Shown piece by piece: positions 19,522 to 47,877 of a DNA stretch of 64,000 bases. The stretch lies in assembly GCF_988242995.1 (NCBI RefSeq), contig NZ_OZ547043.1, one strand, 5' to 3'. The position numbers and the translations under genes are program-made. Within the stretch, counting starts at the first letter, position 1. Every line of letters begins with the position of its first letter. The notes beneath the pieces are model-generated. The model did no database searches, had not been told where the DNA came from, and saw only the letters and a program-made list of their open reading frames with translations.

Positions 19522-20862
19522 TCAATGACGGCCGAAAACGGGACGTTTACAGTCAAAGGTCCAGCCGGGGATCAGGTACTGCATCGGGCCCGCGTCGTTA
19601 CGCGCACCCCCAGGCAGACGTTTATAGGCCTCATGCGCCTTTTGTACCTGCTCCCAGTCCAGTCCCACGCCCAGACCGGGCGCATCAGGAACGGCAATTT
19701 TTCCGTTTTTAATCTCCAGCGGATTTTTGGTCAGGCGACAATCGCCCTCCTGCCAAATCCAGTGGGTATCGATAGCGGTAGGATTACCCGGTGCCGCCGC
19801 ACCCACATGGGTAAACATCGCCAGAGAGATATCAAAGTGGTTATTGGAATGGCAGCCCCAGGTCAGCCCCCAGTCGTCGCAAAGTTGCGCCACGCGGACT
19901 GCACCGGAAAGCGTCCAGAAGTGCGGATCGGCAAGTGGAATATCTACCGCATTGAGCATCACCGCATGGCCCATTTCGCGCCAGTTGGTGGCGATCATGT
20001 TAGTCGCGACGGGCAAGCCGGTCGCCCGTCGAAACTCCGCCATCACTTCACGTCCGGAGAACCCCTGTTCTGCTCCGCATGGATCTTCAGCATAGGTAAG
20101 AACATCATTCAGCCCTTTGCACAGAGAAATGGCTTCATCAAGCAGCCATGCACCGTTGGGATCAACGGTAATCCGCGCATCCGGGAAGCGTTTCTTCAAT
20201 GCACGAACAGTGTCGATTTCTTGCTCGCCAGGTAACACGCCGCCCTTAAGTTTGAAATCTTTAAAGCCGTAGCGATCCTGTGAGGCTTCCGCCAGACGCA
20301 CAACGGCTTCGCTGTTCATCGCTTTCTGATGGCGCAACTGATACCACTCATGGTTGCCCGGCGTATTTTCCAGATAAGGAAGATCGGTTTTGGTCCGATC
20401 ACCGATATAAAACAGATAACCGAGGACGGTAATAGCCTCGCGTTGCTTGCCTGGCCCCAACAGTTCGCAGACCGGAACATTCAGCGCCTTACCTAGCAGG
20501 TCAAGCAAGGCGGCTTCCAGCGCCGCCACGGCATTAACGCGCAATTCAAAAGTCCAGGCACCTTTGCCGAAGGTATCAAAATCGGCTGCCTGATTACCTT
20601 TATGCACCTGCTGAACCACTTTATTCAGGCGCGCAACTTCCTGGCCCAACACCATCGGAATAGCATCGACCAGTGTCTGATAAATCACCTCTCCGCCTGG
20701 CGCTTCACCAATGCCGGTATGCCCGGCGTTATCGGTGAGTACCACAATATTGCGAGTGAAATATGCGTTATGCGCCCCACCAATATTAAGCAACATGCTA
20801 TCGTGCCCGGCGACCGGAATGACTTTCATATCAGTAATAACAGGACTGGATTGTGTCGTCAT
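19522..20862 (-). CDS. gudX: Glucarate dehydratase-related protein
   Basis: 446-aa ORF, paralogous to gudD with long identical peptide blocks ([25 protein letters not shown]). Confidence 0.9.
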
Positions 20863-20863
20863 C

Positions 20864-22216
20864 TTATTGCCCCGCGACAGGTTTCAGCTCGATACGCTTG
20901 ATATCGCCCACCAGCACCAGGTAGCTCAGTACCGCGATTAAGGCATGAACACCAACATAAATCAGCGCCCCATTAAAGGAGCCAGTCGTGCCAACGATAT
21001 AACCAATTGCGATTGGCGTGACGATGCCAGAAATGTTACCGAACATGTTGAACAGGCCACCGGAAAGACCGCTGATCTCTTTTGGCGCGGTATCAGCCAT
21101 TACTGCCCAACCCAGCGCCCCGATGCCCTTACCGAAGAAGGCCAGCGCCATAAAGCCGATGATCATCCACTCAACGTTGACGTAGTTGCAGAACACCATC
21201 ACCATCGACAGCAACATGCCCATTACGATCGGTGTTTTACGCGCAATGTTCAGCGATCCCGTGCGGCGCATCAGCCAGTCGGAAATAATCCCACCCAGCA
21301 CACCGCCGATAAAACCGCAAACCGCCGGAACGGAAGCCACAAAGCCCGCTTTCAGAATCGACATCCCACGCGCCTGCACCAGATAAACCGGAAACCAGGT
21401 AATGAAAAAGTAAGTCAGGGCGTTGATACAGTACTGACCGATATAAACGCCGATCATCATCCGTGACCCGAGCAGCTGTTTGATCTGCCCCCACTTCACG
21501 CTGAACGGCACTTTAACTTTGGTATTTTGCTGATCCATATTGATCAGCGCGCCACCCGCGGCGATGTACTCCAGCTCTTTCTGATTTACACCCGGATGTT
21601 GATTTGGCTCGTGGATGACTTTCAACCAGATAAAGCTGATGACAATGCCCAGACCGCCCATAAAGAAGAAGACGTGTGACCAGCCCACTTCATGCGTCAG
21701 CCAGCCCATAATCGGCGCGAAGATCACCGTTGCGAAGTATTGAGCGGAGTTAAAAATCGACACCGCCGTTCCCCTTTCCTGCGCCGGAAACCAGGCCGCA
21801 ACAATGCGACTGTTGCCGGGGAAAGATGGCGCTTCAGCAAGCCCGACCAGGAAGCGCAGCGTAAACAGGGCAACGATAATGCCGAATCCACTAAAAATAT
21901 CGACGAAGCCTTGCAGCAAGGTAAACATCGACCAGATAAAGATCGACCAGAAGTAGACGCGTTTTGAACCAAAACGATCCAGCAACCAGCCACCAGGGAT
22001 CTGCCCGATAACATAAGCCCATGAGAAAGCAGAGAACACATAGCCCATTCCCACAGGATCAAGGCCGATATCTTTGGCCATTTCCGAACCGGCGATAGAG
22101 AGCGTAGCGCGGTCGCCGTAGTTGAAGGATGTGACGATAAACAACATCACCACTATCCAGTAACGAGCATTCGTGCGTTTTTCCACACTGCTCGCAGCCT
22201 GACTTAAAGAACTCAT
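20864..22216 (-). CDS. gudP: Glucarate/galactarate MFS transporter
   Basis: 450-aa hydrophobic MFS ORF immediately upstream of gudX in the same orientation. Confidence 0.9.
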
Positions 22217-22670
22217 TGTTGCACTCCTGAAAATTCGCGTTAGCCACGCTCACTCTGGACTGCGACATCGCCAGGAAATCAGAGGTGACGTAGGGTGTTT
22301 TTTGCCGTTTTTATAGGTCGTTCGCCGAATACGGCGCGTGTTTATATCTGGCAATAGCAGTATAAAAAGCGCGCCATAGCGGCTCACCGTGCAACAACAC
22401 AACATTAATGCGTTCAATGAGGCCCAATTTTGGCATTAGCCCTGGACGGTGGAATCCACTTCACGGAAATGAAAACAAGAACAAGAAAGGAAGGGTTAAA
22501 ACGAAGAAATAAAGAAGAGTATGAAATGGATCGCTTGACTCCAGGCAAACGCCAGTAAAAATCCGCGCTATGAAGCAGTTTTTACTGGCATTTGCCTGAA
22601 AAGATTCGATTCAGCACCGCTAAAACGGCATTTACACCGCTAAAACGGCATTTACCGCTCGCTGAACGTA

Positions 22671-23120
22671 TCAGGACAACAGCGTGCCCCAATGTTCGAC
22701 CCACGGATTTGATTCCGTTTCCGGTTCCGGGTTCTCACTGGCGTCAATCAACAGCATTTCGCCAACCCGCTGAGCGCTCTGTTCCTGCAACAAGGCATCG
22801 AACTGTTTGCCACCATTGCAGAAATTCACATAACTACTGTCGCCGAGCGCAATCACGCCATAACGCAGATTCGGCTGGAAGCCCAGGGTATCTTTAATTC
22901 CCTGAAAGAGCGGCACAATGCTATCAGGAAGGTCGCCCTGCCCGGTCGTGGACGTAACCACCAGAACATACTTATCCTGATAGGGCAGCCAGTCGCTTAA
23001 TTCAGGATCTTCAAATACCGTTGCTTTGTGGCCCTGCGCGGTCAGAATTGCTTCCGCTTCTTCCGCCACTAACAGCGAATTTCCGTACATAGTGCCGACA
23101 AAAATACCAATTTCCGCCAT
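22671..23120 (-). CDS. yqcA: Flavodoxin-like protein
   Basis: 149-aa ORF with flavodoxin signature ([22 protein letters not shown]). Confidence 0.85.
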
Positions 23121-23137
23121 ACCATTTTCTCCCTGGA

Positions 23138-23920
23138 TTAGGAACTTATCTCTCCATCCTGACCCGATGGCGCACTGAACTCAACCCTTTCATTTTCAGG
23201 AAGCAGACCCCGCCAGCCAAATTGTGATAACGCCTGCATCCAGGTGTCGTCCAGGCCCGCGTGAATAGTCAGCGGCTCGCCAGTAAAAGGATGCGTCAAT
23301 GACAACTGACTGGCATGCAGCATTAACCGCTGAAGGCCAAAATGTTCAGCACCGCTGCGATTCTGGCGTAAATCACCATGTTTGCTGTCGCCAATAATCG
23401 GGTGGCGCAAATGGGCAAGATGGCGACGGAGCTGGTGCTTGCGTCCGGTTTTCGGCTCCAGTTCCACCAGGCCGTAGCGCGTGGTCGGGTAACGTCCGGT
23501 CGCTACCGGCATTTCTACGGTCGCCAGACCGCGATAATGCGTCACTGCTGGCTGTGGGCCTTTATCTTCGCGGGCAAATTTATCAGCGATTTTGTCCAGT
23601 TCTTCCACCAGTGGATAATCCAGAACTGCTTCTTCCATCAACCAGCCGCGCACAATCGCATGGTAACGTTTCTGGATTTGGTGCTGTTCAAACTGTTGTG
23701 CCAGCAGCCGTCCGGCCTCGCTGGATAATCCCATCAACAACACACCAGAAGTTGGTCGGTCCAGACGATGAGCAGTAAACACATGCTGGCCTATCTGGTC
23801 ACGCACGGTTTGCATGACCACTACTTTCTCGTCGCGATCCAGCCAGCTACGGTGAACCAGCCAGCCGGAGGGTTTATTTACCGCAACCAGCCATTCATCC
23901 TGATAGAGTATTTCCAGCAT
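23138..23920 (-). CDS. truC: tRNA pseudouridine(65) synthase
   Basis: 260-aa ORF with RluA-family catalytic motif ([12 protein letters not shown]). Confidence 0.9.
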
Positions 23921-24249
23921 TAGCTCGCATCATCCGCAAAAAGAGCATCCAGTTTTTCCAGCTCAGCCAGAATAAGCGCGCGTTGCGGGTGGTCCGTCGC
24001 CAGCGCCATTTCATAATAGGGAGCAACGGCAAAAGCGCCCGGTAACGGCTGGTTGTTTTCTAACAAATCGTGCATTCGCGGGATCAGCACCCACTGCAAC
24101 CACTCCAGTGGTTCCATGGTGTCCATAAAGAACGGTTGGGTACTATTAAATTGATGCGGCTGGGGTTCATCGTTTCGCCAGTGCTGATGTTCACGCAGTA
24201 ACGCTTCAAGCGCCTGCAACTGGAAACGAACGCGGTCATGAGTGGTCAT
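23920..24249 (-). CDS. yqcC: DUF446-family protein
   Basis: 109-aa ORF with start overlapping the truC stop. Confidence 0.8.
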   Translation of the reverse strand: MTTHDRVRFQLQALEALLREHQHWRNDEPQPHQFNSTQPFFMDTMEPLEWLQWVLIPRMHDLLENNQPLPGAFAVAPYYEMALATDHPQRALILAELEKLDALFADDAS

Positions 24250-24293
24250 AAAGCAACCTCAATAAGAAAAACTGCCGCGAAGGATAGCAGGAA

Positions 24294-24660
24294 TAAAAAA
24301 AGGGAGCACTGTATTCACAGTGCTCCCGGTTCGTTTCGCAGCATTCCAGCTACTTTTGTTGCTCCCTGCTCATCCTTGACAACTTTTCCTCTGGCCTTGC
24401 GGCCAATCGTTCATCCTGAACTATTGCTTCCTGCTCACACCACCCCGATGTGATACTTCATCCTGAAGTGTCCCTGGCCTTCCTGACCCACCGAATCATC
24501 CTGACCGGTTCTCATTCTCCATCCTGGAGGTGTCCTTTAACGCGTCCTGCGTCATCCTCTTCGCTTCATCCAGAAGCCTTTCCCTGAAACACCATCCTGG
24601 TGTGTCCTTCAGAAGTGTCATCATCCTGATGTTCACTTCGTTGTCTGACTCCCTGTCGAC
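24294..24660 (-). ncRNA. csrB: CsrB small RNA (CsrA-sequestering), with 3' intrinsic terminator
   Basis: Minus strand begins gtcgacagggagtc and carries many CAGGA(U/A)G repeats (seen as catcctg on the + strand); ends in hairpin gggagcactgtgaatacagtgctccc plus U-run (24294-24327). Confidence 0.9.
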
Positions 24661-24833
24661 GAAGATAGAATCGTCTTTTTCGCGAAGTCTTACAAGGCGC
24701 TTACAGACAATGCCTTAAGGAAAATTTCATATGAAAGTTAAGGATTAACAAGCAATATATTGATTTTAAATGAAAATAACGATTCTTATCTTTTTAAGTA
24801 TTCGCTTATTTCCTGGCGATCTCCTACAGAGTC

Positions 24834-24851
24834 TGTAAGAGATCTCTCACA
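24834..24851. promoter_or_regulatory. UvrY/SirA binding box upstream of csrB
   Basis: tgtaagagatctctcaca is the exact reverse complement of TGTGAGAGATCTCTTACA, about 175-190 bp upstream of the csrB 5' end. Confidence 0.75.
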
Positions 24852-24870
24852 ACCAGATGGGGTATTTGGA

Positions 24871-25416
24871 TTACAGAAGAGGCTTAAGTTGATTAAGGAA
24901 TTCCGCAAGATTTGAGGCTAAATGCGCCCGTTTACGTGTTCCCAGCGTCTCTTTACACACTTCACCGGAGAGATTACACACCGAGATCACCTCTAACTCT
25001 TCTTCCAGCGTCGCGATAAATAGCGTGGGCGGCAATTTTAGCCTTTTCTGAGTCACCAGATGACCAATCAGATTTTCCTGCACCCGACGGAAGTCGTCTT
25101 CACTCCAGGTTTGCAGCAATGTCAGTTTAATATCGCCAAACTGCGCGTGCATATCCCCGGCAAACTGAGTCGTATAAAAGGTATGAATTGTGGGTTGTAT
25201 CACAATATCAAAAGCGCGTTCAACCGCGTTTACATTTTGTTCCCCGGTAAACGGCTGGGGTTGCCAGTATACGGCGTCTTCGGTGGTTGAAATAATGCAC
25301 GGTGAAGGAACGCCGTACAGTTCCTCACTCAACGGCCAGCTTTTATGCTCTTCATGCCACGCATCGCAGTAGCGTGCAGTAAAATCTTTCAGGGCTTGTG
25401 CGGTCAAATCGTCCAC
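24871..25416 (-). CDS. syd: SecY-interacting protein Syd
   Basis: 181-aa ORF in the K-12 position between csrB and queF. Confidence 0.85.
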
Positions 25417-25483
25417 TAATTTCTCTCTTCACTTAAACCAGATACACTTGTCGTTTAGTTTATCTGGTTTATGACGGTGAAAC

Positions 25484-26332
25484 ATGTCTTCTTATGCAAA
25501 CCATCAGGCACTTGCGGGCCTGACTCTTGGAAAATCAACCGATTACCGGGATACCTATGACGCCAGCCTACTGCAAGGCGTTCCGCGTAGTCTGAATCGC
25601 GATCCGCTGGGTCTGAAAGCGGATAACCTGCCTTTTCACGGTACGGATATCTGGACGCTATATGAACTTTCCTGGCTGAATGCGAAAGGTTTGCCGCAGG
25701 TCGCCGTCGGTCATGTTGAACTTGATTACACCAGCGCAAATCTGATTGAGTCGAAGAGTTTTAAGCTCTATCTCAACAGTTTTAACCAGACGCGTTTTAA
25801 TAACTGGGATGAGGTGCGCCAGACGCTGGAGCGCGACTTAAGCACTTGCGCTCAGGGTAAGGTTAGCGTGGCGTTATATCGTCTTGATGAACTGGAAGGC
25901 CAACCGATAGGTCATTTCAATGGCACTTGCATTGATGACCAGGATATCACTATCGATAACTATGAATTCACTACTGACTATCTGGAGAATGCCACCAGTG
26001 GAGAAAAAGTAGTAGAAGAGACGCTCGTCAGCCACCTGCTGAAATCAAATTGCCTGATCACCCATCAACCAGATTGGGGATCGATCCAAATTCAGTATCG
26101 TGGACGCCAAATTGACAGAGAAAAACTGCTGCGTTACCTGGTTTCTTTCCGTCATCACAACGAGTTCCACGAACAGTGCGTGGAACGCATCTTTAATGAC
26201 CTGTTACGCTTCTGCCAGCCAGAGAAATTGAGCGTTTACGCACGTTATACCCGTCGTGGCGGTCTGGACATTAACCCGTGGCGCAGTAATAGCGATTTTG
26301 TCCCATCGACCACAAGACTGGTTCGGCAATAA
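25484..26332 (+). CDS. queF: NADPH-dependent 7-cyano-7-deazaguanine reductase
   Basis: 282-aa two-domain QueF-type ORF. Confidence 0.9.
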
Positions 26333-47559: not shown

Positions 47560-47571
47560 CGCATCCACGGA

Positions 47572-47648
<77 letters not shown>

Positions 47649-47681
47649 ATTAAAATTTGATGAAGTAAAGCAGTACGGTGA

Positions 47682-47758
<77 letters not shown>

Positions 47759-47792
47759 ATCAAAATTTGATGAAGTAATAGCAGTACGGTGA

Positions 47793-47869
<77 letters not shown>

Positions 47870-47877
47870 ATTATTGA

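What the first reader, a model, noticed from the sequence alone, without database searches (positions are those of the whole stretch)
22615..22660. Perfect 20-bp tandem duplication just downstream of yqcA, upstream of the gud operon
caccgctaaaacggcattta occurs twice back-to-back (22615-22634 and 22635-22654), followed by a partial third copy (ccgctc). Perfect tandem repeats this long are unusual in E. coli intergenic DNA; it may be a slippage-generated polymorphism or a duplicated regulator binding site in the gudPXD upstream region.
Basis: seen in the sequence. Interest (0 to 1): 0.4.

Follow-up and report, generated by a model that had tools for sequence, protein, structure and literature searches.

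The report
Variable 20-bp tandem repeat after yqcA
The perfect 20-bp duplication is real, but it is one allele of an ordinary copy-number-variable repeat (1 to 6 copies among E. coli strains) lying in poorly conserved DNA just after the yqcA gene, with no sign that it is a regulator binding site.

Summary
CACCGCTAAAACGGCATTTA occurs twice, perfectly, at 22615-22634 and 22635-22654, starting 16 nt after the yqcA stop codon and about 400 bp upstream of the gudP start codon. All these genes are on the minus strand.

Among 5,426 complete E. coli genomes the same locus carries 1 copy in about 5,255, 2 in 67, 3 in 84, 4 in 15, 5 in 3 and 6 in 1. Copies are always perfect and in the same register.

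Eight strains whose 6.2-kb flanks differ by 0-1 SNP carry 2, 3, 3, 4, 4, 4, 5 and 6 copies. Copy number therefore changes much faster than point mutation, which marks a slippage-driven VNTR. It is not an assembly artefact.

All sampled multi-copy alleles sit on related local haplotypes that include 042 and ST69. K-12 has one copy with a SNP.

The unit is not conserved outside Escherichia. The conserved gudP upstream region begins more than 75 bp further on, and the co-regulated garP-garD region has no related motif. The regulator-site idea is therefore not supported.

On the yqcA-sense RNA the units pair with one another inside a hairpin whose base is followed by UUUU. Each extra copy lengthens that hairpin by about -10 kcal/mol. 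An effect on yqcA 3'-end formation is possible but untested.

Verdict: an ordinary, previously undescribed VNTR locus of low interest.

The parts
22615..22634 (.). Tandem repeat copy 1, CACCGCTAAAACGGCATTTA
22635..22654 (.). Tandem repeat copy 2, identical to copy 1. This copy is absent from about 97% of E. coli genomes, including K-12.
22654..22659 (.). ACCGCT hexamer that follows the array, 2 nt out of register with the repeat. It is already present in the single-copy allele, 18 nt from the ACCGCT inside the unit.
22603..22672 (-). Predicted RNA hairpin 1 on the yqcA-sense strand. The basal stem GAU.ACGUUCAGC / GCUGAAU.CG.AUC brackets the array, and the units pair with each other through G.U pairs. 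The predicted hairpin grows from -17.6 kcal/mol (1 copy) to -68.2 kcal/mol (6 copies).
   Evidence: the ssDNA fold is asymmetric between strands
22599..22602 (-). UUUU run directly after hairpin 1 on the minus-strand RNA. It may be a weak terminator tail, and it can also pair into the base of hairpin 2.
   Evidence: not flagged by the terminator scan
22539..22601 (-). Long hairpin 2, with arms of about 23 bp (CAGGCAAAUGCCAGUAAAAA / UUUUUACUGGCGUUUGCCUG). It is conserved in Escherichia and Citrobacter with compensatory changes. It neighbours the array but is not part of the repeat.
   Evidence: (inverted repeat I1)
22671..23120 (-). yqcA (flavodoxin) coding sequence. Its stop codon lies at 22671-22673, 16 nt before the array on the minus strand.
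20864..22216 (-). gudP coding sequence, the first gene of gudPXD. Its start codon is 399 nt beyond the near end of the array.
22217..22537 (-). gudP upstream region conserved across Enterobacteriaceae and the likely seat of gudP promoter and regulator sites. It does not include the array.

Best explanation
The duplication is the two-copy allele of a lineage-restricted variable-number tandem repeat (VNTR) with a 20-bp unit. It lies in the non-conserved DNA between the yqcA stop codon and the conserved gudP control region.

Shown here:
- The ancestral and overwhelmingly common state is one copy.
- Multi-copy alleles range from 2 to 6 perfect copies.

Inferred:
- A 20-bp tandem duplication with only 1 bp of junction microhomology arose on a haplotype group that includes strains 042 and ST69.
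- Once two perfect copies existed, slipped-strand mispairing during replication, or unequal sister-strand exchange, expanded and contracted the array. Local recombination then moved it between related haplotypes.
- The array is most likely selectively neutral or nearly so.
- It is transcribed, if at all, as part of the yqcA 3' untranslated region. There the copies pair with each other and lengthen the apical part of a hairpin while leaving its basal stem and the following UUUU unchanged. That would explain why copy-number change is tolerated.
For: Copy-number spectrum in 5,426 complete genomes:
- 170 genomes have 2 or more copies, 103 have 3 or more, and 19 have 4 or more.
- Exactly 67 have 2 copies in a single alignment piece.
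- The other genomes span 331 bp instead of 351 bp, which is one copy; these include MG1655.

Array structure: all arrays read directly have identical units and the same register.

Rate of change: eight strains with 0-1 SNP across 6.2 kb of flanks carry 2, 3, 3, 4, 4, 4, 5 and 6 copies.

Phylogenetic distribution:
- Multi-copy haplotypes cluster together, 126-138 SNPs from MG1655.
- Flank distances are mosaic. For example, GN06156 shares the window's right flank (1 SNP) but differs by 26 SNPs on the left, which indicates recombination.
- A synthetic two-copy query built from the K-12 form of the unit and its K-12 flanks found no genome at 99% identity or more.

Lack of conservation:
- Column identity to E. 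coli is 0-0.3 across 70 Enterobacteriaceae yqcA-gudP spacers, against 0.7-0.99 for most of 22217-22475.
- In the other genera whose sequence or fold was inspected, yqcA is followed in most by a GC-rich or REP-like hairpin instead of this unit.

Folding: the predicted fold gains about -10 kcal/mol per copy while the basal stem stays the same.
Against: - No expression data were available, so neutrality is inferred and not shown.
- The first duplication has only 1 bp of junction microhomology and is 2 nt longer than the spacing of the pre-existing ACCGCT repeats. Simple slippage between those repeats therefore does not explain its origin.
- A single origin is not proven. A one-copy strain (98205) nests among multi-copy haplotypes in the local tree. 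That could mean contraction back to one copy, recombination, or several independent origins.
- The array end resembles a locally repeated 10-mer, which leaves a small chance of protein binding.
Confidence: 0.85

Rival explanations
1. The unit is a binding site for a regulator of gudPXD (CdaR or another protein), and the duplication adds operator copies that change induction.
For: - The array lies in the yqcA-gudP intergenic region.
- A published CdaR glucarate biosensor cloned this whole region, running from inside yqcA to the gudP start, as its promoter (PMC4551912, Supplementary Table S1).
- The yqcA-proximal end of the array reads GGTAAATGCC, one mismatch from GGCAAATGCC. That 10-mer occurs 4 times within 22432-22656 at 1 mismatch or fewer, against 13 in the whole 64-kb window.
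- One of those copies (22432-22441) lies in a cross-species conserved block.
- The 20-bp period is close to two helical turns, so added copies would roughly keep helical phase (inference).
Against: - The unit region is the least conserved part of the spacer and is missing outside Escherichia.
- The internal unit-unit junction reads TGTAAATGCC, 2 mismatches from the 10-mer, so added copies do not recreate the better site.
- The garP-garD control region shares no 9-mer with the spacer and has only a 2-mismatch match.
- About 97% of strains have a single copy, and copy number drifts among otherwise identical haplotypes.
- The array is about 400 bp from the gudP start codon and abuts the yqcA stop codon.
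Confidence: 0.05
2. The array is a functional tuning element for RNA. It sits in the yqcA terminator or 3'-UTR hairpin, and copy number sets the strength of termination or mRNA stability, and so the read-through into gudPXD.
For: - Hairpin 1 brackets the array and is followed by UUUU.
- Predicted stability rises from -17.6 to -68.2 kcal/mol between 1 and 6 copies.
- Pairing relies on G.U pairs and is therefore specific to the yqcA-sense strand.
- In Salmonella and Citrobacter a canonical GC-rich hairpin occupies the same position after yqcA.
Against: - The terminator scan did not flag this site.
- The U run is only 4 nt long and can pair into hairpin 2.
- The basal stem is not well kept even in other Escherichia species. 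L021 has an A-C mismatch there, and L018 and L022 have a different 5' arm.
- No 3'-end data were found: the eLife 2021 3'-end mapping supplements held as text contain no yqcA entry.
- Related strains showed no consistent preferred copy number.
Confidence: 0.08
3. The second copy is an assembly or sequencing artefact.
For: None found.
Against: - 170 independent complete genomes from many laboratories and platforms carry 2 to 6 perfect copies at this locus.
- Two genomes match the window's own 351-bp stretch at 100% and 99.7%.
Confidence: 0.01

Closest known systems
Bacterial VNTR / MLVA loci, such as the intergenic VNTRs used for E. coli MLVA typing (recalled from my own knowledge of the field, not retrieved here)
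   Same: - Head-to-tail perfect copies of a short unit at one unique chromosomal locus.
- Copy number differs among strains while the flanks stay constant.
- Copy number changes faster than flanking substitutions.
   Different: - This locus appears in none of the papers searched.
- It is monomorphic, with one copy, in about 97% of E. coli.
- It varies only within one group of related haplotypes, so as a typing marker it would be informative only there.
Short tandem duplications and their RecA-independent expansion and contraction by replication slippage (established E. coli genetics, for example the work of Lovett and colleagues; cited from memory)
   Same: - Perfect adjacent direct repeats of 20 bp.
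- A size ladder in exact multiples of the unit.
- No variant units within arrays.
   Different: - The founding duplication has only 1 bp of junction microhomology. It does not coincide with the pre-existing ACCGCT...ACCGCT 18-nt repeat, so its own origin is not explained by simple slippage.
- Mutation rate and recA dependence were not measured.
Contingency (phase-variable) repeat loci of pathogens
   Same: A hypermutable repeat tract whose length differs among close relatives.
   Different: - The tract lies neither inside a reading frame nor between -35 and -10 promoter elements.
- The unit is 20 bp, whereas contingency loci use units of 1-7 bp.
- No switchable phenotype is known.
Intrinsic (Rho-independent) terminators at gene ends
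   Same: It lies immediately after a stop codon, forms a predicted stem-loop on the sense RNA, and is followed by a run of U.
   Different: - The stem is AU- and G.U-rich.
- The loop region is long and composite.
- There are only 4 U residues.
- The site did not meet the consensus scan.

Membership tests
VNTR (variable-number tandem repeat) locus | Two or more head-to-tail copies of a unit longer than a few bases | tested here: met
   Two perfect 20-bp copies are present. Other strains carry up to six.
VNTR (variable-number tandem repeat) locus | Copy number differs among strains at the same locus, with conserved unique flanks | tested here: met
   The copy-number classes 1, 2, 3, 4, 5 and 6 hold about 5,255, 67, 84, 15, 3 and 1 genomes. 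There is one matching place per genome at the median.
VNTR (variable-number tandem repeat) locus | Copy number changes faster than point substitutions in the flanks | tested here: met
   Eight strains with 0-1 SNP in 6.2 kb of flanks carry 2 to 6 copies.
Transcription-factor operator (CdaR site of the gud/gar regulon) | Conserved in species that keep the regulator's target promoter | tested here: not met
   Column identity is 0-0.3 across 70 yqcA-gudP spacers. The unit is absent outside Escherichia.
Transcription-factor operator (CdaR site of the gud/gar regulon) | Related motif upstream of co-regulated operons (garPLRK, garD) | tested here: not met
   The MG1655 garP-garD intergenic region shares no 9-mer with the spacer, and its only match to the 10-mer has 2 mismatches. 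That these operons are CdaR-regulated is from memory of the literature.
Transcription-factor operator (CdaR site of the gud/gar regulon) | Direct binding by the protein | not testable with these tools
   No footprint or ChIP data were found. The biosensor paper used the whole spacer without dissecting it.
Intrinsic terminator | GC-rich stem-loop immediately followed by a U-tract on the sense RNA | tested here: inconclusive
   The fold gives a bracketing stem followed by UUUU, but the consensus scan found no terminator here.
Intrinsic terminator | A mapped RNA 3' end at the U-tract | not testable with these tools
   Neither yqcA nor gudP appears in the 3'-end mapping supplements held as text. 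The other paper tried has no supplements held.
Dispersed intergenic repeats (REP/BIME and similar) | Many copies scattered around the genome | tested here: not met
   The unit occurs only here in the window. The 351-bp region has one place per genome.
Described RNA families (Rfam 15) | Match to a covariance model | tested here: not met
   Between 20000 and 26000, at E-value 1 or below, only CsrB was found, at 24292-24651.
Phase-variable contingency locus | Repeat tract inside a reading frame or a promoter spacer, so that length switches expression | tested here: not met
   The array lies 16 nt after the yqcA stop codon and 399 nt before the gudP start codon. No promoter-like site overlaps it.

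The most novel reading that the evidence does not exclude
The array could be a lineage-specific tuning element. By lengthening the hairpin at the end of yqcA in steps of about -10 kcal/mol, copy number would set how much transcription reads through into gudPXD, or how stable the yqcA message is. Strains of the ST69/042 group would then have heritable but quickly adjustable basal levels of glucarate uptake and catabolism in the gut or urinary tract.
Probability: 0.05. Interest if true: 0.45.

Novelty: new member of a known kind. Interest (0 to 1): 0.15.

Why it matters
Mostly it does not. The finding is a routine slippage polymorphism in non-conserved spacer DNA.

Its practical value is modest. 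It is a clean, perfect-unit VNTR that varies from 2 to 6 copies within otherwise identical haplotypes of a clinically important group, which includes ST69 and 042-like strains. It could therefore add resolution to typing within that group.

It also marks the boundary between the dispensable tail of yqcA and the conserved gudP control region. That boundary is useful for anyone trimming the gudP promoter used in glucarate biosensors.

Tried and rejected
- **Rfam scan** of 20000-26000 at E-value 1 or below: only CsrB was found, and nothing at the array or the hairpins.
- **Promoter and terminator consensus scan** of 22100-22800: nothing on the array.
- **Literature.** No paper holds yqcA together with gudP and intergenic, or yqcA together with tandem repeat. 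None of the 14 papers holding yqcA has a title or abstract that concerns this locus. No paper contains the unit sequence or its K-12 variant on either strand.
- **CdaR site.** No mapped site was found. The biosensor papers used the whole spacer.
- **3'-end mapping.** One paper's held supplements have no yqcA or gudP entry, and the other has no supplements held.
- **Independent duplication of the K-12 unit variant** (ACGAC form): no genome reaches 99% identity to a synthetic two-copy K-12 query.
- **Shared motif with the garP-garD control region:** none found.
- **Identity bands from flank-plus-array queries as a copy counter:** abandoned, because megablast splits alignments at larger gaps. I replaced this with a pure 10-unit query at stepped E-value cut-offs.
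- **An apparent 13-genome discrepancy** between searches is most simply explained by multi-piece alignments. Exactly 67 genomes have a one-piece two-copy match.

Full report
**1. Observation**

The window reads ...TTCAG CACCGCTAAAACGGCATTTA CACCGCTAAAACGGCATTTA CCGCTCGCTG... with the two units at 22615-22634 and 22635-22654. Tandem Repeats Finder reports period 20, 2.0 copies, 100% matches and score 82. Allowing up to 3 mismatches, the unit occurs nowhere else in the 64-kb window, and shuffles give 0.01 matches on average. It is the strongest short-period tandem repeat in the window.

In register only one more base matches. What recurs is the hexamer ACCGCT at 22616, 22636 and 22654, and the last occurrence is 18 nt from its predecessor, not 20.

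**2. Context**

All neighbouring genes are on the minus strand. In order they are csrB (24292-24651; Rfam score 383 bits), yqcC, truC, yqcA (22671-23120), a 454-bp spacer, then gudP (20864-22216), gudX and gudD. On that strand the array begins 16 nt after the yqcA stop codon and ends 399 nt before the gudP start codon.

**3. Population survey**

A 351-bp query centred on the array hits 5,425 of 5,426 complete E. coli genomes, nearly always once. In almost all of them the match spans 331 bp, which is one copy. MG1655 has one copy with a SNP, CACCGCTAAAACGACATTTA.

I then used a query of ten units at stepped E-value limits:
- 170 genomes have 2 or more copies.
- 103 genomes have 3 or more copies.
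- 19 genomes have 4 or more copies.
- Exactly 67 genomes have a one-piece two-copy match.

The resulting spectrum is:

| Copies | Genomes |
|---|---|
| 1 | about 5,255 |
| 2 | 67 |
| 3 | 84 |
| 4 | 15 |
| 5 | 3 |
| 6 | 1 |

Direct reading of the fetched E. coli loci (L001-L017) shows identical units in the same register in every multi-copy genome. This excludes an assembly artefact.

**4. Tempo and descent**

After removing the array, eight strains have 6.2-kb flanks that differ by 0-1 SNP. They are FDAARGOS_1288, FDAARGOS_1290, UPEC69, O15:H18 ST69, CB6886, 51489, 2017C-4173W12 and SCU-313. They carry 4, 2, 4, 3, 3, 6, 4 and 5 copies respectively. Copy number therefore changes far faster than point mutation.

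Sets of isolates that look like close relatives by name or record share the same number, so the array is stable over short spans. Examples are the DG34x chicken isolates, HR5-1 and HR12-1, B1.H1.1 and B1.H1.18, and the laboratory capsule mutants.

All sampled multi-copy haplotypes cluster together, 126-138 SNPs from MG1655. From my own knowledge, 042 and ST69 belong to phylogroup D.

The window itself is 2 SNPs from strain Z1323HEC0462. Its right flank is 1 SNP from GN06156 while its left flank differs by 26 SNPs. WP8-S18 and M7424 share the ST69 right flank but not the left. Recombination has therefore shuffled the flanks around the array.

The multi-copy state marks only part of the haplotype group:
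- 484 genomes are at least 99% identical to the ST69 right flank, but only 170 of all the genomes surveyed have 2 or more copies.
- One-copy relatives exist (Br167, GPEC856, 98205), and 98205 nests among multi-copy haplotypes.
- No duplication of the K-12 unit variant exists.

The simplest reading is one founding duplication followed by slippage, occasional contraction to one copy, and recombination. Several origins cannot be excluded.

**5. Is it a regulator site?**

I aligned the yqcA-gudP spacers of 70 Enterobacteriaceae, obtained with the one genome-contig scan.
- Strong conservation is confined to the gudP-proximal part. Most of 22217-22475 is conserved, with a further block around GTCAAGCGA at 22528-22536.
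- The array columns score 0-0.3.
- The unit, or a recognisable part of it, is present only in Escherichia species.
- In Salmonella, Citrobacter and most of the other genera whose folds I inspected, yqcA is followed by a GC-rich or REP-like hairpin instead.

The garP-garD control region of MG1655 shares no 9-mer with the spacer and has no good copy of the local 10-mer.

There is one residual hint. The 10-mer GGCAAATGCC occurs four times within 22432-22656 at 1 mismatch or fewer, against 13 times in the whole window. The yqcA-proximal end of the array is one of these, GGTAAATGCC. However, the unit-unit junction created by duplication is a worse match, TGTAAATGCC.

No mapped CdaR site could be found in the literature. 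The published CdaR biosensor cloned the whole spacer, starting inside yqcA, without dissecting it (PMC4551912).

**6. RNA and DNA structure**

On the yqcA-sense RNA the array lies inside a hairpin spanning 22603-22672. Its basal stem, GAU.ACGUUCAGC pairing with GCUGAAU.CG.AUC, is followed by UUUU.
- The units pair with each other through GCGGU/GCCGU, which needs G.U pairs. The sense strand therefore folds well and the other strand poorly. The ssDNA fold gives -14.1 kcal/mol (z = -3.0) against -8.6 kcal/mol (z = -1.0).
- Predicted stability runs -17.6, -26.4, -37.5, -47.3, -58.4 and -68.2 kcal/mol for 1 to 6 copies, with the base of the hairpin unchanged.
- This fits a weak terminator or 3'-UTR hairpin whose apical part can grow freely.
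- The evidence for function is thin, however. The consensus scan does not call a terminator here, the basal stem is poorly kept in other Escherichia species, and no 3'-end data were found.

Immediately downstream lies a much stronger hairpin with an approximately 23-bp stem, at 22539-22601. It is conserved in Escherichia and Citrobacter with compensatory changes.

**7. Mechanism**

Shown:
- The locus is a tandem array.
- Its copy number is polymorphic in exact multiples of 20 bp.
- All copies are perfect.
- Copy number changes quickly relative to flank substitutions.
- Sequence conservation is lacking.

Inferred:
- Expansion and contraction occur by replication slippage or unequal sister-strand exchange. 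This is established behaviour of short perfect direct repeats in E. coli, cited from memory.
- The predicted hairpin-forming tendency of the minus strand may contribute.
- The array is near-neutral.

The founding event is not explained by the ACCGCT microhomology, which would give an 18-bp duplication.

**8. Comparison and verdict**

The locus meets every defining feature of a VNTR that I tested. It fails the tested features of an operator, a dispersed repeat, an Rfam family and a contingency locus. Its status as a terminator is inconclusive.

I found no description of this locus in the searchable literature. It is therefore a new member of a well-known kind. Interest is low.

Noticed in passing
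window 22539-22601 (minus strand): A very stable hairpin lies beside the array, with arms of about 23 bp: CAGGCAAAUGCCAGUAAAAA / UUUUUACUGGCGUUUGCCUG. The whole 171-nt region folds at -73 kcal/mol (z = -6.9). The hairpin is kept in Escherichia and Citrobacter, and partly in Salmonella, with compensatory changes (CCAGUAAAA/UUUUACUGG becomes CCUGUAAAA/UUUUACAGG in L024 and L039). In Citrobacter it is followed by UUUUCAU, like a terminator, about 70 nt beyond the first yqcA hairpin. No Rfam family matches it. Its function is unknown.
   Followed up: partly
window 22432-22441, 22544-22553, 22587-22596, 22647-22656: Four copies of the 10-mer GGCAAATGCC (1 mismatch or fewer) cluster within 225 bp of the yqcA-gudP spacer, against 13 in the whole 64-kb window (8.2 expected). 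Two form the arms of the long hairpin, and one (GGCTAATGCC) sits in a block conserved across Enterobacteriaceae. This may be a protein-binding motif. It is not found in the garP-garD control region.
   Followed up: partly
window 22217-22537: Strongly conserved blocks upstream of gudP appear across 70 Enterobacteriaceae. Examples are TTTCCGTGAAGTGGATTCCACC (22470-22449, containing the palindrome GTGGAATCCAC), TTAATGTTGTGTTGTTGCACGGTGAGCC (22408-22381) and GTCAAGCGA (22536-22528). These are candidate gudP promoter and CdaR elements. No mapped sites were found in the literature searched.
   Followed up: partly
loci L023, L024, L037-L040 and others, first 40 nt after yqcA: In most of the other genera inspected (including Salmonella, many Citrobacter, Kosakonia, Phytobacter, Raoultella and Leclercia), yqcA ends with a GC-rich hairpin, usually CCCUCCC...GGGAGGG. 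Enterobacter has a REP-like palindrome instead. E. coli and its closest relatives lack this hairpin and have the AU-rich hairpin that contains the repeat unit.
   Followed up: partly
loci L101 (PK12) and L102 (CUVET19-970); L002 (MG1655): Single-copy alleles carry unit variants: CACTGCTAAAACGGCATTTA in PK12 and CUVET19-970, and CACCGCTAAAACGACATTTA in K-12. On the sense RNA the K-12 change turns a G-C pair of the small internal hairpin into a G.U pair.
   Followed up: no
window 47570-47871: A tandem array with a 110-nt period (2.7 copies, 98% matches) corresponds to three tandem tRNA-Met (CAT) genes at 47572-47648, 47682-47758 and 47793-47869.
   Followed up: yes
window 21922-21951: An imperfect 15-bp x 2 tandem repeat (TAAACATCGACCAGA, 93% matches, score 53) lies inside the gudP coding sequence. 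It keeps the reading frame and was not examined further.
   Followed up: no
H426, NZ_CP069627.1 (strain ESM1.4): In one genome the yqcA-queF flank is interrupted by an IS3-family element (ISEc52); the match is split into two pieces spanning 4.25 kb.
   Followed up: no
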